From IMG/VR virus record IMGVR_UViG_3300021387_000129: a DNA stretch of 20,000 nt; one strand, written 5' to 3'. The notes under the pieces were generated by a model. The model was given only the letters and a program-made list of their open reading frames with translations. It searched no databases and had not been told where the DNA came from. The translations under genes were made by a program, and so were the position numbers. Position 1 is the stretch's first letter; each line of letters begins with the position of its first letter. Below, piece by piece: positions 256-20,000 of this stretch. The DNA comes from an uncultured virus (IMG/VR IMGVR_UViG_3300021387_000129). Lineage: Duplodnaviria; Heunggongvirae; Uroviricota; Caudoviricetes.

Positions 256-499
256 AATCCGATCTCCTCTCACCATAATAATTATTGATTACAATGGGTG
301 CCTGCGCTGATGGATATACCTGCTGGGGCTGATCCTTCCTTGTCAGTACCTTGCTCCCAAATGCAATCACACCGAACGTAAGTCCAAATTTGATAATGCC
401 TGAATAATGCTCCAGCTTGTCATTCAGCGTCTCCTTTGCCGATTCCACAGCACCATCTGTCGCCTTAGTCGTAAGCCTCTTAGTCAATTTTTCAAACAT
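152..499 (-). CDS. hypothetical membrane-associated protein
   Basis: ORF track 152..673; the upstream part overlaps a terminator and another gene, so start placed at MFEKL (499); hydrophobic GIIKFGLTFGVIAFG; no clear RBS. Confidence 0.55.
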   Translation of the reverse strand: MFEKLTKRLTTKATDGAVESAKETLNDKLEHYSGIIKFGLTFGVIAFGSKVLTRKDQPQQVYPSAQAPIVINNYYGERRSDYEQKENTRANQNWRQHRDLCRHCQPHATDHTKRK

Positions 500-1970: not shown

Positions 1971-2003
1971 AGATCCGATCTCCTTTCTTGTCGAGAGAGT
2001 AGT

Positions 2004-3865: not shown

Positions 3866-4324
3866 CTTCTGCCCACCGAATATCGACTTTTCAAGTGCAA
3901 TATTTACAGGATGCCCATGTTCAACGACCAAAGGTTGCTGGTGGATAAACTTCTTTTTTAAAACGCGTCCATCAGTAGTCCTGATAGTTATTTCCGGGTA
4001 CTCAATATGATCACCATCCGTATCTCCTTCGTCCGGTTCATCATCCTGTGGCGATTCCTCTTCTGCCAATTGCCGTTCTACTTTCCAATTGGATGCATAT
4101 ACCTCCAACCCCAACTGAAGAAGCTGGACAATCCTTTTGGTAATATTCTCGACATCCTCAATGTCATAGAATGGGAGTGTCATCACCTCAAATGTCGGAT
4201 ACTTGTCCCCAACATTCCATGCCGTCTTAAGAATATACTTCCTGAATTTTGCATACTCTCCAGCATTCTGAAACCGTACCTTAATCGTCACCTGTCCAGT
4301 AAACTTCTCAACATAATCGCTCAT
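3857..4324 (-). CDS. hypothetical protein (backbone)
   Basis: AGAAAGGAG RBS before MSDYVEK; acidic linker. Confidence 0.75.
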   Translation of the reverse strand: MSDYVEKFTGQVTIKVRFQNAGEYAKFRKYILKTAWNVGDKYPTFEVMTLPFYDIEDVENITKRIVQLLQLGLEVYASNWKVERQLAEEESPQDDEPDEGDTDGDHIEYPEITIRTTDGRVLKKKFIHQQPLVVEHGHPVNIALEKSIFGGQKSQ

Positions 4325-4364
4325 ATGCAATCTCCTTTCTAAATTAGACATGACTAATTCGATA

Positions 4365-4792: not shown

Positions 4793-4940
4793 AGGACTTG
4801 TGGGCTTCGAACCCACGTCTCCACATACATGGTGTTCTACCATTAAACTATTCTATCGGCTAGTAAAACCGAGACAGAATTTCTTCCGCTTTTACGCCTT
4901 TCAACGCTCGGCCCTCCGACGGGTTTATACTCCCAATCCT
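4793..4940 (-). ncRNA. tRNA-like structured RNA carried as cassette cargo
   Basis: Closing stem AGGATT/AGTCCT; D-arm-like TAGTTTAATGGTAGAAC; T-arm GTGGG-TTCGAAG-CCCAC; extra domain with two GAAA-capped hairpins; own motif upstream and T-tract-TCGC downstream. Confidence 0.6.
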
Positions 4941-8406: not shown

Positions 8407-8454
8407 TCCTTGGTAAGGATGAGGTCGCCGGTTCGAATCCGGCCATCAGCTCCA
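8407..8454 (+). other. attP core: 3' half of tRNA-Thr(GGT)
   Basis: Anticodon loop TTGGTAA, T-arm GCCGG-TTCGAAT-CCGGC, CATCAGC-T-CCA; no 5' half; adjacent to the integrase. Confidence 0.85.
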
Positions 8455-8456
8455 CG

Positions 8457-8494
8457 ACCTGAAGCACGTTGTATCAATGGGCTTCGGGTTTTTT
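8457..8494 (+). terminator. terminator downstream of the reconstituted tRNA
   Basis: ACCTGAAGC...GCTTCGGGT plus T-tract. Confidence 0.6.
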
Positions 8495-8498
8495 GTTA

Positions 8499-9722
8499 TT
8501 ATCCTGTAGACTCCTCGGAAGATCTCATACTTTGAGAATTGTCCAGTGTTTTGTCCGGTTGAGGGTCATTCATGACGAGTCTGACGCTCTCAAATAATTC
8601 GGTTCTGTACTTCACATAGCGTTTCTCTGTTATGTCGCTCTTGGAATGACCAAGCATGCGTGAAATAACGTCCACAGGAATGCCTGATTCACGCCATTCA
8701 GTAGCACACGTATCACGAAAATCATGTGCTGTGTATTGCTGCAAGTCAAATTGGCACCTGATCCGGTTAAATTCCCGCTTAGCCTCTGAATAAGATAGCG
8801 GAGTTTCCCGTTTACCCTCATCCAGATAGCTGCTGAGAATAAAACCAGTAGCATACTTCGGCTTTAATGTCTCCCATACGACTTTTGGCAAGGGAATTTC
8901 CCTGTCGCTCGTCTTGGATTTTGGTGGTTTGATCTCTGGCTGATTCCTCGTTGGATGAACAACAGCCCTTTGAATATGCACCCAGCCCGTCTGAGGATCA
9001 ATATCTTCCCATTTAAGACCGAGCACTTCTTCAAATCGCAGACCCAAATAACACAGGAGTACAGCCATATTCCGAGTACGACTTACAGGCATTTGCGAGA
9101 TTTGAGCTCTTACTTCTGCCATCTTTTCACGAGGTATAGCCTGATGATGCGTCGTAGCTGCCCCTCCAATTACCAGTTTCTCCGACTTCATTGGATTTCG
9201 GGAAATATGTCCATCTTCTACAGCTGAATTCAGCGCAGGAGACATGTTATTCTTGATTTTAAGCAGCGTCTCATGGGAATATCCGTCCTTCTCCAGCTGG
9301 TTAAACCACTCCTGCAATCCTGTAGTGGTGATCTGGTCTACAGGAATGCTACCCCACTTGGGAAGAATATGCTTGCTTACGATGTACGCTCTTGAACTCT
9401 TGGTTAATGACTGCTGTTTAGACTTGTAAACCTTGTTGAACTCCTGTAGATAGCTTCCAAATAAAGGTTCTTTTGGCTTTGGCTTCTCTATATGGCTGAT
9501 GATGCCAGGCATGACGGTGCCCTCCTGGAGACACAGTTGCAAATATCCTTCAAGCAGCTCCTTGAGGGTTTTGCCTGTCACCCAGCACTCTTTACCACCA
9601 ATATTCATCTGCTGCTTATAGCGCTTAGGCATGGTTTCTCCTTCTGCGCAAAGCCCTATTCCGTTTACAAGGTTCAGCAATATACCAAGGACCTGACTTT
9701 GAGTATAAAGAACCTCAGACAT
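8499..9722 (-). CDS. int: tyrosine recombinase / phage integrase
   Basis: Catalytic motifs GLRFEE, PKSK, HDFR, LGHS...RY; SAM-like core-binding domain; alternative start at 9632. Confidence 0.95.
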   Translation of the reverse strand: MSEVLYTQSQVLGILLNLVNGIGLCAEGETMPKRYKQQMNIGGKECWVTGKTLKELLEGYLQLCLQEGTVMPGIISHIEKPKPKEPLFGSYLQEFNKVYKSKQQSLTKSSRAYIVSKHILPKWGSIPVDQITTTGLQEWFNQLEKDGYSHETLLKIKNNMSPALNSAVEDGHISRNPMKSEKLVIGGAATTHHQAIPREKMAEVRAQISQMPVSRTRNMAVLLCYLGLRFEEVLGLKWEDIDPQTGWVHIQRAVVHPTRNQPEIKPPKSKTSDREIPLPKVVWETLKPKYATGFILSSYLDEGKRETPLSYSEAKREFNRIRCQFDLQQYTAHDFRDTCATEWRESGIPVDVISRMLGHSKSDITEKRYVKYRTELFESVRLVMNDPQPDKTLDNSQSMRSSEESTG

Positions 9723-9878
9723 GAAGTCAACTCCTGTAATTCATGAAAATAGCCGGAACCCCACCAAACCGGCTGATCCCGCCGAACTCATCTCCAACCT
9801 GCACGTCGACAAAGGCTCTCATCCCGGCTGCGAGACAAAAAGTTATCGGGTTGGATAAGAGAAAGGACTACTCCGAAA

Positions 9879-9968
9879 TGCTGATGCCGGGGATCGAACC
9901 CAGACTGTTCCATGCCAGTAAAGAAGAAAGGAGATCGTGAAAAACTTCGCTGGCATTAACACATCAGC
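9879..9968 (-). ncRNA. tRNA-scaffold RNA with anti-SD loop
   Basis: 7-bp acceptor GCTGATG/CATCAGC; T-arm CTGGG-TTCGATC-CCCGG; D and anticodon arms replaced by TGCCAG..CTGGCA hairpin with loop CACGATCTCCTTTCTT. Confidence 0.65.
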
Positions 9969-10001
9969 AAAAATAAAAGAGCCATGCGTATGCACAGCTC
10001 T
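9969..10001 (-). terminator. GU-wobble terminator
   Basis: AGAGC-TG-TGC-ATAC-GCA-TG-GCTCT plus T-tract. Confidence 0.75.
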
Positions 10002-10028
10002 ATGAGAATGATTAACCAAGAACCTTCT

Positions 10029-10181
10029 TCATTTATGTTCACACTCCTTTTTTCCATCCATAACAGTATTGATCGCATTCATGATTGCGGTCTGCAATGT
10101 ATCTGCCTCGATAAGGTCTGCGTACTTCACGATAAGGTAAAATTCTTCTCCAGAAAACTCAATGCAGATTTTCTCGTTCAT
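10029..10181 (-). CDS. small hypothetical protein, possibly ribbon-helix-helix
   Basis: GGAGG RBS before MNEKICIEFS; strand-helix-helix pattern. Confidence 0.55.
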   Translation of the reverse strand: MNEKICIEFSGEEFYLIVKYADLIEADTLQTAIMNAINTVMDGKKECEHK

Positions 10182-10209
10182 GATGCCTCCATAATACATG
10201 GTAATTTTG

Positions 10210-10414
10210 ATGCGGGTGAGGATTTGCACCTCACATAGCTGTTCATCTCAGAGCCATGCTTTACGATCTCCGCAATAAGATCATCATAGCACACAGCCTT
10301 GCCATAAGCGTCTACTGATGCAACCGGACTCCGCAGACTTAATTGCGCCATCTGTTTCTGTCTGTACGCACCTGGGCTTCTCTCTTTCTAGCCACATCTA
10401 TTCCGCCACCGCAT
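10210..10414 (-). ncRNA. expanded class-II-tRNA-like RNA (~205 nt)
   Basis: ATGCGG/CCGCAT stem; TGGCGGAATAG...GTAGACGC D-arm with large stem insertion; T-arm GTGAGG-TGCAAAT-CCTCAC. Confidence 0.6.
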
Positions 10415-10433
10415 TTAAGGCGTTATTTAAAAA

Positions 10434-10557
10434 ATGGCTTCCGTACAGCACGGACTCAAACCGTGTGCTTCGCCGCTGTTAACGTCCACGGAAGACGGTC
10501 ATGAGGCAGGCACCCGCCCCTGTACGGATTCACACTTCCTTTCTGAGTGTTAGCCAT
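10434..10557 (-). ncRNA. cloverleaf-containing structured RNA
   Basis: Outer stem ATGGCT/AGCCAT; 9-bp TCCGTACAG/CTGTACGGA; T-arm-like CACGG-TTTGAGT-CCGTG; T-tract. Confidence 0.55.
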
Positions 10558-10621
10558 AAACGTGTTATTTTGTATAGCTTGAAACAAAAATCCGGTCAAT
10601 CATCCTATCCACTGTCTTTCT

Positions 10622-10696
10622 TTATTTTTCTGCATTAAGAATTGCTCCAACAATGGACACTATTAACGCAATAATCGATATGATTAAAAACATCAT
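10622..10696 (-). CDS. 24-aa hydrophobic peptide
   Basis: MMFLIISIIALIVSIVGAILNAEK, GAGGGGTG RBS. Confidence 0.45.
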   Translation of the reverse strand: MMFLIISIIALIVSIVGAILNAEK

Positions 10697-10702
10697 CCCG
10701 TC

Positions 10703-10873
10703 TCACCCCTCTTTGCAACTGTCATTCTTTTTAAGCCATTCCATCACAACCATCCGTACAAGCCCAGAAACCGTCATACCACGTTTGGCCGCTTTTGCTT
10801 TCAGATGATTCAGCACAGCCGGAGAGAAAAAGACATTGATTCGCTCAGAGTTTTCTGGCGATTTAGGGGACAT
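10703..10873 (-). CDS. ribbon-helix-helix (CopG/Arc-like) DNA-binding protein, 56 aa
   Basis: Hand-translated ERINVFFSPAVLNHLKAKAAKRGMTVSGLVRMVVMEWL; GGAGGTG RBS. Confidence 0.75.
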   Translation of the reverse strand: MSPKSPENSERINVFFSPAVLNHLKAKAAKRGMTVSGLVRMVVMEWLKKNDSCKEG

Positions 10874-10894
10874 AATACCACCTCCTCAGATAAT

Positions 10895-10923
10895 ATTGTA
10901 TCACCCTTTTATCATCATGTAAA
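10895..10923 (-). promoter_or_regulatory. sigma70/SigA-type promoter
   Basis: TTTACA-17 nt-TACAAT with extended TG, upstream of the RHH gene. Confidence 0.6.
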
Positions 10924-10926
10924 GTG

Positions 10927-11013
10927 TTATTTAAATACCGATCCGTTCCCGACAAGTATCCCGCCAACGAAGCAGCAGATACACACCAACGCCCATGCTA
11001 TTTCTTGCGTCAT
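10927..11013 (-). CDS. 28-aa membrane peptide
   Basis: MTQEIAWALVCICCFVGGILVGNGSVFK, GAGGTG RBS. Confidence 0.45.
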   Translation of the reverse strand: MTQEIAWALVCICCFVGGILVGNGSVFK

Positions 11014-11024
11014 CTTGCACCTCT

Positions 11025-13034: not shown

Positions 13035-15755
13035 TTATCCTTTTTTTAGTTTGTAATAACCAGAACCATAGTTGTTTTTTACAATGACTTTGATTTTTGA
13101 TCCTGCAACGATATCACCTATTGATATGCTCCCGTATTCTTCAATTACTTCGATTATTCTGCCGTTAAACGTATCTGGGACATCGATGTATTTATTTACG
13201 GACGAATGCGCGTCGACCATCAAATAGATGTCATCGCCGACATAATACCACGCAACGGAAGGCAATTCGTTATCATACGTGATCAGCGGGCATCTGAATC
13301 CAACCATGCTCAAAGTGTCTTCGTCTGTTACGGGTTTGGGGGTTGCGGATGAATAAGAATAGAAAAACGGATGCATTTTGTGTGTTTCGTATATAAACCC
13401 GGCACTGTTGATGACTTTTCTCAGATCGTCAACTCCGTCAGCGTACTTGTTGTTGTACCCTATAACCATCCCGTTTCCCGCTGTGTTGCTGTTGGTATAC
13501 TGGTAGTAGCGAATTGGGGGTTTGTTTGCATCGCGCCATGTGCTCGGTGTCAGTTCTTGTCGTGCGCTTGGGATCGCGCCAACGCCATCGAAAGTCGTAC
13601 CGGGTACAGACCAGTAGTTAAACCCACCAGACGTGGATTGCACACCATGCGCAAACTCGAAATCCCCATCTCTGTTAAAGCCGATTGATTCGTATACCGT
13701 GATACTCCCGCGTTCACTACAATGAAGCACCAGATTCATAGTGAAAAAGCTGTCTGCGATGGCTTCGCTGAAATACGATGAGTTCGTGTTGTTTCCGACA
13801 TGGTTTTTTAGGTACGTTATCATCGCCGCTGAGGAGATGACATCGTACGAGTTCACGATATCAAAGTACGAGCTTCTGTACACCCCGTTTTCCGTTATCT
13901 CGTTTCCTTTGTCATCAAACACCTTTACGGTCTGGTGGTTGATGGCAGGTGTTATTTGTTGACCACGTTCGTACGAACTAAACGTCTTTGTAACACCATC
14001 CCTCGACATGCTATTTACTTCGATAGCAAGCCAATCAAGACCATTATGTGTGTTTACAGGGAAACCACCCCAAATGACGGTGTCGCTTACTATGCGGATG
14101 ATAACAAATTCTTTCCCGTCTATCAGCCATGTTTCGCCGATGTTGCTCTCTGTAAACCCGTGTGCTGATTCGAACGTTAGTTTGTAGCCATATGCGTTCC
14201 CGTGGTTACCACCAACGATTGTTCCGTTCATACGTACACCCGTCATATCGTCTGTGGCAGTTTTGAAGAGCGTTCCGGCTGTTACGTTGTCAGCACTTGT
14301 TTTCGGCAACGTGTAGTAGCTATCGAAGTTAAACACGTTGTCCGTTGTGTTTATAATAAACTTAATGGCTATATCGAGTTCAGAATCGAATCTGCTCCTG
14401 ACATGAAAATCTGTTCCGATTTTGTTTAATATAACATCTCCATTCGGTGTGATTTGCTCTATCCTCTTTTCGAGTTCGCTTATTTTTTTAGTGTTTGAAT
14501 TAATCTTTGATTGTAGAGTTGTCTCTCCATAAACCAATATCTCGCTTATAGGTATTCCAGACAGATCATCATGTACTCCGTAGTACTCGTCCGATGAGCT
14601 ATGAACGCTTCTGTTGGTGATATAGAAAACCACATACTCAACCCCGGAGTTATCTTTAATCTCTATTGAAAGGTCTTTATCATTACCGGAGAAGTTAACG
14701 TAATCTGTTGAACCGCCATGCCAAATGGCATTTGTCAAGCCATATGCTCTATACCCATTCGATGAATTATTTATATTAAAAGCAAAAAGCGGGTTTTTCG
14801 ATGCCCCGTAAAGAGCAACATCGCCAATGTAAAGCGTTTCTGTTTTTATGTTTATAGTTCTTCCTAACGCAGACACAGGGATATATCCGCTTAGTATACC
14901 ATTAGCGAACGACACAAACGATCCGTTACTATTCTGTATGATGTAATGATCCACAACGTAATCGCTTACATCTACTGTTCCCATATTGAAACTGTTTATA
15001 TTTTTTATTTTGGCCGTGTTTGCGGCAACATCTGTTTCAAGATGTCCGATTCTGTTTTCTGCGCCTAAAAGCCCTTTTTCTTTTGTTGCTATAGCCCAAT
15101 ACACTACGTCCTCATGTGTTAAAGCCGGGTGGGCAGAACCGTAGTATGCGTTAAAAGCAATTTTTGCGGCTGTCGGATATGCCGTTTTTATGCTCGATGA
15201 TACGACGGTAAGGCTTCGTGAAATAAATTCACCAAGAAATGTTCCAGACTCATTCCAACAAACAACGTTCCATATGGAGTAACCAGAAAAAGCATTTATA
15301 AGTTCATATGTTACATCTTCTTGAATATCTACGATGTCAGTGCAAGCCCAACCATCATCGGACCTAACCTGTCCTGTTGATTTGAGGTAATATTTGTTTG
15401 GTAGAAAATAACCTGTGCCGCCACCATATATATATAGTCCGTCCTTTTTATAAAAAGCGCTCTTTAAGTCACCAATCTCATCCTCAAAGCTCACTTCATC
15501 CCAATGCGCAGCCGTCCAGGATTCAGTTGTTTGAATATCCGTTTTTGCCACGTATGGTTTATCCGCATATAGACAATAAGTTCCAGCAGTAACAGGGAAA
15601 GTCAAATCCTCATATCTTGAGGCAATAATGACAGTATCACCACGATCACCCTTAGCACCTGGCGCTCCAGGATCACCCTGTCTTCCGGGCGGCCCAACAA
15701 TCGCAGGAATATCAATCCAATTCCCTTGACTATCCTTGACTCTCAATATATTCAT
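13035..15755 (-). CDS. large fibre / receptor-binding-like protein with collagen repeats
   Basis: GPPGRQGDPGAPGAKGDRGD, short carbohydrate-binding-like motif, coiled segments, beta-rich body; GGAGG RBS at MNILRV. Confidence 0.75.
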   Translation of the reverse strand: MNILRVKDSQGNWIDIPAIVGPPGRQGDPGAPGAKGDRGDTVIIASRYEDLTFPVTAGTYCLYADKPYVAKTDIQTTESWTAAHWDEVSFEDEIGDLKSAFYKKDGLYIYGGGTGYFLPNKYYLKSTGQVRSDDGWACTDIVDIQEDVTYELINAFSGYSIWNVVCWNESGTFLGEFISRSLTVVSSSIKTAYPTAAKIAFNAYYGSAHPALTHEDVVYWAIATKEKGLLGAENRIGHLETDVAANTAKIKNINSFNMGTVDVSDYVVDHYIIQNSNGSFVSFANGILSGYIPVSALGRTINIKTETLYIGDVALYGASKNPLFAFNINNSSNGYRAYGLTNAIWHGGSTDYVNFSGNDKDLSIEIKDNSGVEYVVFYITNRSVHSSSDEYYGVHDDLSGIPISEILVYGETTLQSKINSNTKKISELEKRIEQITPNGDVILNKIGTDFHVRSRFDSELDIAIKFIINTTDNVFNFDSYYTLPKTSADNVTAGTLFKTATDDMTGVRMNGTIVGGNHGNAYGYKLTFESAHGFTESNIGETWLIDGKEFVIIRIVSDTVIWGGFPVNTHNGLDWLAIEVNSMSRDGVTKTFSSYERGQQITPAINHQTVKVFDDKGNEITENGVYRSSYFDIVNSYDVISSAAMITYLKNHVGNNTNSSYFSEAIADSFFTMNLVLHCSERGSITVYESIGFNRDGDFEFAHGVQSTSGGFNYWSVPGTTFDGVGAIPSARQELTPSTWRDANKPPIRYYQYTNSNTAGNGMVIGYNNKYADGVDDLRKVINSAGFIYETHKMHPFFYSYSSATPKPVTDEDTLSMVGFRCPLITYDNELPSVAWYYVGDDIYLMVDAHSSVNKYIDVPDTFNGRIIEVIEEYGSISIGDIVAGSKIKVIVKNNYGSGYYKLKKG

Positions 15756-16126
15756 TTTATCCTCCAAAAGAAGCTGGGAATTTCAGATCCTGAATCCCAG
15801 CTATCATAATAATCACCATCAATGATTGCCACAGCATGACTTCCTGTTCCAATAATATATACCCCTCTGGGATACATCTTGGTAAACAGATCAATCGTCA
15901 CACATGTTGGGCAGTTATCAGGAAGGAGAAACGGTTCAAATCCCATTTGATAAAGATACTTGCCCCAGACTGCGTCCGCGACAGGAATATTGAACTCTTT
16001 TCGACCAAGAGCACACAGATCGTCATAAACATCGATCCATCTCCGGTTCAGAGCAATAGTAATAGCACGAATAACACAGTCTGGGACTTCTTTGTGAGCA
16101 GGGTTCGGGTTACATCTCATCCACAT
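15752..16126 (-). CDS. conserved phage protein, putative papain-like Cys-His-Asp hydrolase
   Basis: DCVIRAI...SHAVAIIDG..YYDSWDS. Confidence 0.6.
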   Translation of the reverse strand: MWMRCNPNPAHKEVPDCVIRAITIALNRRWIDVYDDLCALGRKEFNIPVADAVWGKYLYQMGFEPFLLPDNCPTCVTIDLFTKMYPRGVYIIGTGSHAVAIIDGDYYDSWDSGSEIPSFFWRIK

Positions 16127-16379
16127 GAGCTTCGTCGCTCCATGGTTCTTCGTAGCTCATAGCCCTTTCGCTGTCGCCAATTCCCTGAGTGGTAGGATCA
16201 ACCAGCACACCGATCAGACCTAAGAAGGTCAAGATTTGACTGGCAACCTTCATCATGGTGTTTTCAGTCACGATCGGAACCACGTCAAACAGCTCCAGCA
16301 TGCTGAATACAAATCCAATGATCAGCGACACGAACATCGTGAGCCAGGTTTTATTTTTGAACCGTACTTTCCAATTCAT
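16110..16379 (-). CDS. phage holin, phiLC3 family
   Basis: MNWKVRFKNKTW, two TMs, GVLVDPTTQGIGDSERAMSY signature. Confidence 0.9.
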   Translation of the reverse strand: MNWKVRFKNKTWLTMFVSLIIGFVFSMLELFDVVPIVTENTMMKVASQILTFLGLIGVLVDPTTQGIGDSERAMSYEEPWSDEAHVDEM

Positions 16380-18377: not shown

Positions 18378-20000
18378 TTAAGACGCATTAGTAACAGGAG
18401 ATATTTTTTCAGTGAACACGTAGAATGTTTTTTCTCCAATCATCAATGTGATTGTTATTTTTACAAAATTATCATATTCGGATGGTGCGATTGTTATCTT
18501 ATTATCTATCGCACCATATAAACTATATCCGGCATTAACCAAATTATTGCTTAAAGTTATTCGGAACATATCATAGTCGCTGTTTGTTCGTCTTCGATGC
18601 ACATACAGTGTCATCGGGCTGAAGGTATTGGTTCTGGATTTATTTATGTCTCTTAAAGTTATGGTTAATCCATTTCCATTTGAATACCCGAGAGCATCGA
18701 CCGAAAAGCTTCGTGGGAATAACTCATCAACGGTTTGATTAAAATTTGTCGAAGGATATCCTATTGTTATTCCATTATTTTTTTTCTGAGACAAAAATGA
18801 AGGACAAACCAACGTCTGATATTCATAATATGTAGATGGAAGCATTTGATGATTGTCCACTATCCAATTCCCTTGCATGAAAGGATCTCTACCAGACCCA
18901 ATAAATGGATTAAAAACATATGTCCTTGCATTGCTATTTGGAGAAATGCTATAGATTCTATCATAAGCATTATTAAAGTAATTTGTAAATCCGTCTCCTA
19001 TTGCTTCGAAATAGGTATGAAGTATATTCAGCGCATAGCAACCCGTTTTCATAACTAATGTATCATATGTCGATGCATAATTTATTATGGTACCGCCATA
19101 CGTTAACCCTAATCTAAATGATAGCGGGCCAGATTGTGTGGATAATTGATTTATTAAAAATATTCCTTCACTACGAGAAGATACAAGATTAACTCCACCG
19201 CCTATAGGAATAAATCCGATCCTTCCATCTTCATCATTTTTATAATCACTCGGACAATATGTGCCTCCTTCGAAATTAAAGATTGCTTTTGTTTTATCTT
19301 CTGCATCCAAAACGTAAGTTTCTTGTAATCGCTGATTTAATAAAACAAGTCGGTTCCGAAGGTTTTCTGTTTGATACAAACTATCGTCTACGTACATCTC
19401 GGCTTGGCCATAATTATTACTAAATAAGTCTTCTATAACTCCGTTTGAAAAATAAACTTGATCGATATTACCATTTATGTTTGATATTTCGACAGAAGTG
19501 TTGGATATATATTTCCCTTTACAGTGTAATTTATATCCGCACTGCGACGTGCTTAAAGAATTAAATCCTAGCCCAATATAACCAGTTCCTGAAGCATCCG
19601 TGCAAAGACCCCAAATGCGAGCATAATCTATTTGTATTTCATCAAAATGCGAATTACCGCAACTCGATAACCAAACACCAATATTGACAGATCTTGCGCA
19701 ATTAACACGTAGCTTTCCCGTAGTTGTTATTTTACTTCCGGCAAAGCCGATCATATATTCAAACGTATTGAGAGAGTATTTCCTTGTCGTGGCTAAAGTA
19801 GTATCATTAAAATGTAAAACGCACGGCCCAACAAAATCTATAGAATCAGAGATCATATAAGTTTTGTTAGCAAAATATATTTCTTTATTTCCTGATGATA
19901 TTAGTGCTTTAATAGCTTGTGTGTCATCAGTTGCGCCATCACCCTTAGCCCCGAACATTTCAGGAGTTACATAGTTGTTTTTAAGAGCAAGCAATGTTTC
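18378..20000 (-). CDS. tailspike/depolymerase-like beta-helix protein (pectate lyase 3-type N-terminal motif), probably 5'-truncated
   Basis: VTPEMFGAKGDGATDDTQAI motif; frame open to the window edge; visibly AT-rich. Confidence 0.75.
   Translation of the reverse strand, partial: ETLLALKNNYVTPEMFGAKGDGATDDTQAIKALISSGNKEIYFANKTYMISDSIDFVGPCVLHFNDTTLATTRKYSLNTFEYMIGFAGSKITTTGKLRVNCARSVNIGVWLSSCGNSHFDEIQIDYARIWGLCTDASGTGYIGLGFNSLSTSQCGYKLHCKGKYISNTSVEISNINGNIDQVYFSNGVIEDLFSNNYGQAEMYVDDSLYQTENLRNRLVLLNQRLQETYVLDAEDKTKAIFNFEGGTYCPSDYKNDEDGRIGFIPIGGGVNLVSSRSEGIFLINQLSTQSGPLSFRLGLTYGGTIINYASTYDTLVMKTGCYALNILHTYFEAIGDGFTNYFNNAYDRIYSISPNSNARTYVFNPFIGSGRDPFMQGNWIVDNHQMLPSTYYEYQTLVCPSFLSQKKNNGITIGYPSTNFNQTVDELFPRSFSVDALGYSNGNGLTITLRDINKSRTNTFSPMTLYVHRRRTNSDYDMFRITLSNNLVNAGYSLYGAIDNKITIAPSEYDNFVKITITLMIGEKTFYVFTEKISPVTNAS

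What the first reader, a model, noticed from the sequence alone, without database searches (positions are those of the whole stretch)
9879..9968. tRNA scaffold displaying an anti-Shine-Dalgarno guide that matches a phage RBS
Seen: perfect acceptor stem and T-arm (the part RNase P and RNase Z recognise), while the D and anticodon arms are replaced by a long hairpin. Its loop CGAUCUCCUUUCUU (9937-9924) is the exact 14-nt complement of the RBS of the 298-aa gene (1976-1989). Shorter matches occur at the RBSs of genes starting at 255, 4324, 5720 and 12573, and the loop resembles the 16S 3' end. The acceptor strand CATCAGC is the same as in the attP tRNA-Thr. Established: P1/P7 C4 and P4 CI are RNase P-processed antisense immunity RNAs. 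Inference: an RNA-based repressor or general translation inhibitor next to int. Caveat: about 9 of the 14 nt are generic SD sequence.
Basis: partly seen in the sequence, partly recalled or inferred. Interest (0 to 1): 0.8.

Follow-up and report, generated by a model that had tools for sequence, protein, structure and literature searches.

The report
tRNA-like RNA module upstream of phage integrase
A temperate phage of rumen Clostridia carries, between a terminator and its integrase gene, a tRNA-shaped element whose long arm shows the mirror image of the phage's own ribosome-binding sites; it may be a small regulatory RNA, but nothing yet shows that it is made.

Summary
At 9968..9879 (-) there is an 8-bp acceptor helix, a canonical T-arm and a single long arm in place of the D and anticodon arms. 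A strict scan for that combination expects 0.01 hits per shuffled window. The 21-nt loop contains the exact complement of the 14-mer at 1976-1989.

- **Not a known family.** ARAGORN and Rfam find nothing at the element.
- **Likely origin.** Its ends (acceptor, U8-G9, discriminator A) best match tRNA-Leu(UAA) of the host family, more than the attP tRNA-Thr.
- **Setting.** It abuts the T-tract of an intrinsic terminator, has no sigma-70 promoter of its own, and lies 156 nt upstream of int.
- **Relatives.** One relative (L100, about 97% identical) keeps the element. Its two changes both give G·U pairs on this strand only.
- **The loop is not a general anti-SD.** Most RBSs fit the 16S tail better, but three (starts 1970, 255, 4324) are predicted to bind the loop 5-7.5 kcal/mol more strongly. 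The 14-nt match is only weakly beyond chance (3-17%).

No expression or deep comparative data could be obtained. My best reading (0.35) is an RNase P/Z-excisable anti-RBS RNA. A decayed tRNA relic is nearly as likely (0.30).

The parts
9879..9968 (-). tRNA-like element (90 nt). Acceptor 9968-9962 pairs with 9886-9880; discriminator A at 9879. T-arm 9903-9887. Long arm 9961-9906.
9924..9944 (-). 21-nt loop of the long arm. Positions 9937-9924 are the complement of the RBS type AAGAAAGGAGATCG.
9969..10001 (-). intrinsic terminator: 10-bp hairpin 10001-9978 plus T-tract 9977-9969, which ends at the element's first base
   Evidence: conserved in L100
9723..9878 (-). non-coding leader between the element and the int start codon. 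It carries single-base indels in relatives.
8499..9722 (-). tyrosine integrase, 407 aa
8407..8454 (+). 3' part of tRNA-Thr(GGU) with CCA; the likely attP core
1976..1989 (-). RBS of the 298-aa DUF6353 gene (start 1970). Exact 14-nt complement of the loop; predicted duplex -23.3 kcal/mol.
260..273 (-). RBS of the gene starting at 255; predicted duplex with the loop -21.8 kcal/mol
4328..4341 (-). RBS of the gene starting at 4324; predicted duplex with the loop -19.5 kcal/mol
10895..10923 (-). nearest upstream sigma-70-like promoter (TTTACA-17-TACAAT, TG-extended). It heads an inserted gene block whose transcripts would have to read through the terminator to reach the element.

Best explanation
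The element is a tRNA-derived RNA module, most like tRNA-Leu(UAA) at its ends.

**What it keeps.** It keeps the acceptor stem, discriminator and T-arm, the parts that tRNA-end-processing enzymes read. The rest has become one long arm with an open 21-nt loop.

**Most likely mechanism.**
1. Transcripts that read through the upstream terminator are cut by RNase P at 9968 and by RNase Z after 9879.
2. This releases a stable RNA of about 90 nt. As a by-product it severs the int message from upstream transcripts.
3. The loop then pairs with the AGAAAGGAGAU(C/U)G-type ribosome-binding sites of a few of the phage's own genes (starts 1970, 255, 4324; more weakly 12573 and 5720) and lowers their translation.

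**Shown:** the fold, its tRNA-like ends, the complementarity, the setting.

**Inferred:** transcription, both cuts, stability, any repression.
For: - **More than chance.** The tRNA-like ends are expected 0.01 times per shuffled window. The fold has z -2.9 and persists inside the 281-nt leader.
- **tRNA descent.** A model of the element finds, in 3 of 151 host-family genomes at E<=0.001, only tRNA-Leu(UAA) genes. Two of the three have the same acceptor and the third differs at one compensated pair; all have UG at 8-9 and discriminator A.
- **Strand.** L100 differs at two adjacent stem positions. Both become G·U on this strand and mismatches on the other. The arm survives on this strand (-25.8 kcal/mol) and collapses on the other (z -0.6).
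- **Targets.** The three strongest predicted partners of the loop among 30 RBS regions bind it 5-7.5 kcal/mol better than the 16S tail. Only 6 of 2853 windows on the coding strand reach -20 kcal/mol.
- **Plus-strand reading is weak.** The only start codon (GTG 9937) lies 3 nt after GGAG. One relative has a base inserted after 9968, which would shift that frame.
- **Similar build elsewhere.** An unrelated GC-rich contig (L116) has the same layout, with z -5.1 and a 9-nt loop holding the same AUCUCCU.
- **Precedent.** RNase P cuts phage antisense C4 RNA, M3 RNA and operon mRNAs (PMC11143913, passages).
Against: - No sigma-70 promoter lies between the terminator and the element. The element begins at the last base of the terminator tail, so supply depends on read-through.
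- There are no compensatory double changes. Only one relative could be aligned, and the element's divergence (2 of 90) is no lower than that of the leader (about 7 of 156).
- The 14-nt match is 2.8-17% likely by chance once the SD core is granted.
- AUCUCCU is also the 3' strand of the anticodon stem in many tRNA-Leu(UAA) genes. The anti-SD look may therefore be partly inherited.
- No Rfam family matches.
- L100 has C instead of U just after the discriminator.
Confidence: 0.35

Rival explanations
1. A decaying relic. A tRNA-Leu(UAA)-like gene, phage-borne or picked up at an old attachment site, lost its D and anticodon arms. It now lies untranscribed between a terminator and int, and its likeness to an anti-SD is inherited and compositional.
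For: - The ends match host-family tRNA-Leu(UAA).
- AUCUCCU is the usual anticodon-stem strand of that tRNA.
- The window holds other tRNA debris: a partial tRNA at 4850-4800 (29.1 bits) and a weak one at 10526-10442.
- The element sits in a transcriptional dead zone after a terminator.
- It diverges from L100 no less than its flanks do.
- Odd tRNA-like sequences are common in phage contigs: 38 of 418 scan hits.
Against: - Decay should not leave 8 of 8 acceptor pairs, an intact T-arm and a new 15-pair arm. The interior alone has z -2.2, with 6 of 200 shuffles as stable.
- The interior shows no significant likeness to tRNA-Leu: z 3.4, matched by unrelated tRNAs.
- The extension of the complement from 7 to 14 nt needs explaining.
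- Both changes in L100 spare pairing.
Confidence: 0.3
2. A cis-acting processing or insulating signal only. The tRNA-like fold makes RNase P and RNase Z cut read-through late or inserted-block transcripts ahead of int. This uncouples or destabilises the int message, an analogue in effect of lambda sib (recalled). The loop has no target.
For: - Position between terminator and int, kept as one 320-nt block in L100 while the DNA on both sides differs.
- RNase P is known to cut operon mRNAs (PMC11143913, passages).
- The int RBS is not a good partner of the loop.
Against: - It does not explain why the arm displays the phage's RBS complement in an open loop.
- A terminator already insulates int.
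- L100 keeps the element although int is deleted there.
Confidence: 0.15
3. The plus strand is what matters. AAGAAAGGAGATCG is (or was) the RBS of a plus-strand gene, either the 22-codon frame from GTG 9937 or a longer one in relatives.
For: - The sequence is identical in type to real RBSs of this phage.
- L100 keeps the 22-codon frame with 2 synonymous changes and 1 non-synonymous change (my reading).
- With the extra A seen in run X2 the frame would join the 84-codon frame 9984-10238.
Against: - The spacing between GGAG and GTG is 3 nt.
- The T-loop motif and the G·U changes make sense only on the minus strand.
- The 84-codon frame has no family. It overlaps a minus-strand gene with its own GGAGG site (my reading).
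- No plus-strand promoter was found in 9500-9900.
Confidence: 0.05
4. A DNA site: a second or former attachment core, or an Int-binding site.
For: It lies next to int, is tRNA-like, and shares the acceptor strand with the attP tRNA-Thr part.
Against: - No genome of 185,579 species holds a tRNA with these ends (0 hits).
- The real core (8412-8454) is found exactly in 45 loci.
- A recombination core does not need the 5' acceptor strand or the arm.
Confidence: 0.05

Closest known systems
C4 antisense RNA of phages P1/P7 (and CI RNA of P4)
   Same: Phage-encoded; cut out of a longer transcript by RNase P (PMC11143913, passages). It acts by pairing with ribosome-binding regions (recalled).
   Different: - No Rfam match here.
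- The scaffold here is a true acceptor plus T-arm mimic.
- The predicted targets are 5-10 kb away, not directly downstream.
- The host is a Gram-positive anaerobe.
- Neither expression nor processing is shown.
tRNA-Leu(UAA) of the host family
   Same: Acceptor stem, U8-G9, discriminator A, T-loop and the 7-mer AUCUCCU.
   Different: No D arm, anticodon arm or variable arm. ARAGORN and the Rfam tRNA model do not call it. It scores only 31-33 bits either way.
tRNA-like domain of tmRNA
   Same: Acceptor stem and T-arm, with the rest replaced.
   Different: It is 90 nt and has no tag frame. Pair 3-70 is U-A, not G·U. ARAGORN, which also seeks tmRNA, finds none.
tRNA-like processing signals in longer transcripts (RNase P sites in operon mRNAs; mascRNA type, recalled)
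   Same: A tRNA-shaped fold embedded in a longer transcript, between two genes.
   Different: Here the fold carries a long arm whose loop matches ribosome-binding sites. Cutting has not been shown.
tRNA 3' fragments at phage attachment sites
   Same: Next to a tyrosine integrase, with a tRNA-derived sequence.
   Different: It has both acceptor strands. No host tRNA matches. The true att core lies on the other side of int.

Membership tests
tRNA (RF00005) | cloverleaf with D arm and anticodon arm | tested here: not met
   ARAGORN finds 0 genes in the window. There is no tRNA match at E<=10 in 9700-10150. The fold shows one long arm instead.
tRNA (RF00005) | 7-bp acceptor stem, discriminator, 5-bp T-stem with a T-loop of type UUCRANY | tested here: met
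tmRNA | tRNA-like ends enclosing a tag reading frame and pseudoknots; G3·U70 | tested here: not met
   ARAGORN finds no tmRNA and Rfam gives no match. The element is 90 nt long and pair 3-70 is U-A.
C4 antisense RNA (P1/P7) | match to the family's sequence and structure model | tested here: not met
   No Rfam family other than a chance miRNA hit (E 4.1) at E<=10.
C4 antisense RNA (P1/P7) | complementarity to a ribosome-binding region of a phage gene | tested here: met
   14 of 14 nt at 1976-1989. Predicted duplexes are -23.3, -21.8 and -19.5 kcal/mol at three RBSs. The match is only weakly beyond chance.
C4 antisense RNA (P1/P7) | made and matured by RNase P; represses in vivo | not testable with these tools
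   The two RNA runs laid gave no cover here, which says nothing either way.
attP core (tRNA 3' fragment) | identity to the 3' part of a host tRNA gene | tested here: not met
   0 hits in genome contigs for these ends. By contrast 8412-8454 is exact in 45 loci.
independent sRNA gene | own promoter and own terminator | tested here: not met
   No sigma-70-like promoter between 10001 and 9968, and no terminator after 9879. Only consensus promoters are covered by that scan.

The most novel reading that the evidence does not exclude
Phages have turned tRNA-Leu-type genes into scaffolds. The acceptor and T-arm serve as built-in RNase P/Z cutting marks, and a long arm displays an AUCUCCU-centred anti-RBS loop. 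The released RNA selectively shuts down a subset of the phage's own genes, acting as an RNA immunity or timing switch beside int. The window's element and the GC-rich L116 element would be two members.
Probability: 0.15. Interest if true: 0.8.

Novelty: new variant of a known kind. Interest (0 to 1): 0.45.

Why it matters
If the RNA is made and cut as proposed, it would be a promoter-independent way for a Gram-positive phage to produce a stable antisense regulator from any read-through transcript. It would also extend the rare C4/CI type of RNA immunity to gut and rumen Clostridia phages. Finally, it would give a natural example of the 'tRNA scaffold' trick used in RNA engineering. If it is a relic, it simply marks a past tRNA capture next to int.

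Tried and rejected
**Searches for relatives of the element**
- blastn of 9600-10300 against phage records: no match.
- Exact 25-mer and 20-mer in IMG/VR: 0 hits each.
- Gapped ends-pattern in genome contigs: 0 hits.
- The relaxed version of that pattern in metagenome contigs: 65 loci, of which only L100 is a relative.
- The same relaxed pattern in IMG/VR: 17 loci, none a relative.
- blastn in 401 genomes of the host order: only chance hits, best E 0.0013. Four of these were inspected and lie in unstructured, probably coding, sequence.
- Model R1 in 151 family genomes and 88 loci: only tRNAs at about 30 bits.

**Searches through neighbouring genes**
- int has no close relative: best 31% identity in 5 host genomes; 0 of 399 at E<=1e-70; none in IMG/VR.
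- Six relatives of the 142-aa neighbour carry it inside a lysis block, with no element or int nearby.

**RNA evidence**
- Contigs of two metatranscriptome runs (X20, X21) covered only the tRNA-Thr part and 10210-10347. This is no evidence either way.
- Variant letters inside 9879-9968 in runs X2 and X4 were cut from the listing.

**Other**
- Interior likeness to tRNA-Leu is not distinguishable from that to unrelated tRNAs.
- The 16S tail pattern was not found in 5 host genome bins but was found in 7 of 121 family genomes.
- Earlier findings of this scan: nothing, 3 look-ups.
- Literature: 3 papers hold 'tRNA-like', 'anti-Shine-Dalgarno' and 'phage', none on such an element (listing only). No paper holds 'tRNA-like', 'integrase', 'prophage', 'RNase P' and 'small RNA' together.

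Full report
**Setting**

The window is phage DNA, with essentially all genes on the minus strand.
- Tail-fibre-like protein at 18378-19994.
- Holin at 16110-16379.
- A 910-aa protein at 13035-15767.
- A tyrosine integrase at 8499-9722.
- Small genes of unknown function to the left.

No whole genome is held for the window.

A 3' part of tRNA-Thr(GGU) with CCA lies at 8407-8454 (+), 44 nt beyond the int stop.
- Its 43 nt at 8412-8454 occur exactly in 45 loci. By their record titles nearly all are Clostridia genome bins, many from rumen or gut.
- In several of those loci the likeness runs on into the tRNA's downstream flank, for example L002 at 93% over 92 nt.

This is the likely attP core, and it names the host group.

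**The element**

- A 7-bp acceptor helix, plus an eighth pair.
- A 5-bp T-stem (one G·U) with loop UUCGAUC, joined directly to the 3' acceptor strand.
- A discriminator A.
- In place of the D and anticodon arms, a 4+7+4-bp arm with a 21-nt loop.

The fold has MFE -29.5 kcal/mol and z -2.9. It persists when the whole 281-nt leader is folded, and that leader is otherwise not unusually structured (z -0.4).

A strict scan for 'acceptor plus adjoining T-arm' finds only this site and expects 0.01 per shuffled window.

ARAGORN calls no tRNA or tmRNA. Rfam gives no family at E<=10 apart from a chance miRNA hit.

**Ancestry**

A covariance model of the element was run over 151 genomes of the host family.
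- It gave three matches at E<=0.001, all tRNA-Leu(UAA) genes at 31-33 bits.
- Two of the three share the acceptor; the third differs at one compensated pair. All share UG at positions 8-9 and discriminator A.

The 7-mer AUCUCCU in the loop is also the 3' strand of the anticodon stem in this and many phage tRNA-Leu(UAA) genes. Overall, though, the interior is no more like tRNA-Leu than like unrelated tRNAs.

No tRNA with these ends exists in the 185,579-species collection.

**Neighbourhood**

The element's first base is the last base of the tail of an intrinsic terminator: a 10-pair hairpin at 10001-9978 followed by TTTATTTTT.

No sigma-70-like promoter lies between them, nor in the 156-nt leader before int. 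The nearest upstream promoter is at 10923-10895. It heads a block with a ribbon-helix-helix gene at 10703-10873. So the element can only be transcribed by read-through.

**Relatives**

Only one could be aligned: L100, a 4337-nt metagenome contig.

The stretch 10007-9690 (terminator, element, leader and the first 11 int codons) is 96.9% identical. Around it:
- L100 lacks 10008-11024.
- L100 lacks int, deleted between two copies of TCAGGTC.

Inside the element there are two adjacent changes (C17 to U, A18 to G). Both turn Watson-Crick pairs into G·U on this strand and into mismatches on the other. The arm survives on this strand (-25.8 kcal/mol) and is lost on the other.

This favours an RNA on the minus strand, but it is weak evidence:
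- There is no double compensatory change.
- It may be a single mutational event.
- The element has diverged no less than its flanks.

Public runs add little.
- 19 further DNA runs hold a fifth to a third of the sampled words of 9300-10300, out of 13 studies in all; where an organism is on record it is a ruminant or gut metagenome.
- In two runs that were laid, contigs cover the element at about 95-97% identity, so these are strain-level relatives.
- One has an extra base in the T-tract just outside the element.

**The loop**

The exact 14-nt complement at 1976-1989 is real. It belongs to an RBS type, AGAAAGGAGAU(C/U)G, shared by the genes starting at 1970, 255, 4324, 12573 and, less well, 5720.

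The chance of a 14-nt run against any of 30 RBS regions depends on what is granted:
- 2.8% given a generic SD core.
- 17% given the phage's own 11-nt core.

The loop is not a general anti-SD.
- In 18 of 30 RBS regions the host-type 16S tail (read) pairs better.
- The int RBS is among the poorest partners (-8.1 kcal/mol).
- Three RBSs stand out, against -18.4, -14.3 and -14.6 kcal/mol for the 16S tail: -23.3 (1970), -21.8 (255) and -19.5 (4324).
- Their products are of unknown function; one is DUF6353.

**Plus-strand reading**

- The only start codon after the SD is GTG 9937, 3 nt after GGAG.
- A relative's inserted base after 9968 would shift that 22-codon frame.
- The T-loop motif and the G·U changes are meaningful only on the minus strand.

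I rate this reading low.

**A similar build elsewhere**

Among the 82 pattern hits, one GC-rich contig (L116) has the same layout between two genes of unknown function.
- The same acceptor (by design of the search).
- A canonical T-arm.
- A single 4+6+6-bp arm.
- A 9-nt loop, CCAUCUCCU.
- z -5.1, with 0 of 200 shuffles as stable.

It is a lead for a wider class, not proof of kinship.

**Verdict**

The anatomy is real and tRNA-derived. I favour a minus-strand RNA that is excised at its tRNA-like ends and whose loop pairs with a subset of the phage's RBSs (0.35). Cutting would also uncouple int from upstream transcripts.

A decayed tRNA-Leu-type relic is nearly as likely (0.30). A purely cis-acting processing signal (0.15), a plus-strand RBS (0.05) and a DNA site (0.05) follow.

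Nothing here shows transcription, cutting or repression.

Noticed in passing
window 8407-8497 (+): A 3' part of tRNA-Thr(GGU) with CCA, exact in 45 loci that by title are nearly all Clostridia genome bins. Likeness to the host's downstream flank and terminator runs on to about 8497. This is the likely attP and host assignment.
   Followed up: partly
L100 4029-4035; window 9692-9698 and 8462-8468: The one close relative lacks the whole int gene. The deletion lies between two copies of TCAGGTC and leaves the first 11 codons joined to the tRNA-Thr part.
   Followed up: partly
window 10008-11024: A 1-kb block absent from L100. It has its own strong promoter (10923-10895), a ribbon-helix-helix gene (10703-10873) and small genes. 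It is moron-like, possibly a toxin-antitoxin or exclusion module.
   Followed up: partly
window 4800-4850 (-): Partial tRNA (Rfam tRNA 29.1 bits, model positions 8-63) with D arm and T-arm but no acceptor stem. It is followed by AGTCCTTTCT (4798-4789), the same 10-mer that follows the main element (9869-9860).
   Followed up: partly
window 10442-10526 (-): A second, weak cloverleaf-like fold (7-bp acceptor, T-loop UUUGAGU) overlapping a terminator-like hairpin. The relaxed scan expects 0.23 per window, so it may be chance.
   Followed up: no
window about 9799-9815 and 9826-9842: Two copies of a TTTGTC..GCAG motif in the int leader on the minus strand, about 27 nt apart. They could be a regulator's binding sites for int expression.
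   Followed up: no
L116 903-983: A GC-rich contig with the same layout (acceptor, one long arm, T-arm), z -5.1 and loop CCAUCUCCU, lying 31 nt upstream of an AAGGAGAG ribosome-binding site.
   Followed up: partly
L103, L149/151/155, L111/153/154, L082/128/139, L146, L142: tRNA-like genes with constant or near-constant ends (GCTGATG ... GGCGGTTCGATTCCGTCCATCAGCA) but very different interiors. In three loci the next gene looks like cargo: a HigB-like toxin, Abi_2 and DUF4145. One member lies beside a Lacto-phage-1 RNA.
   Followed up: partly
L141 3352-4008, L147, L145, L096: Phage tRNA-like genes with inserts of about 40 nt after an intact D arm (apparently in or near the anticodon region), sharing an AACAGC motif. 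ARAGORN does not call them.
   Followed up: no
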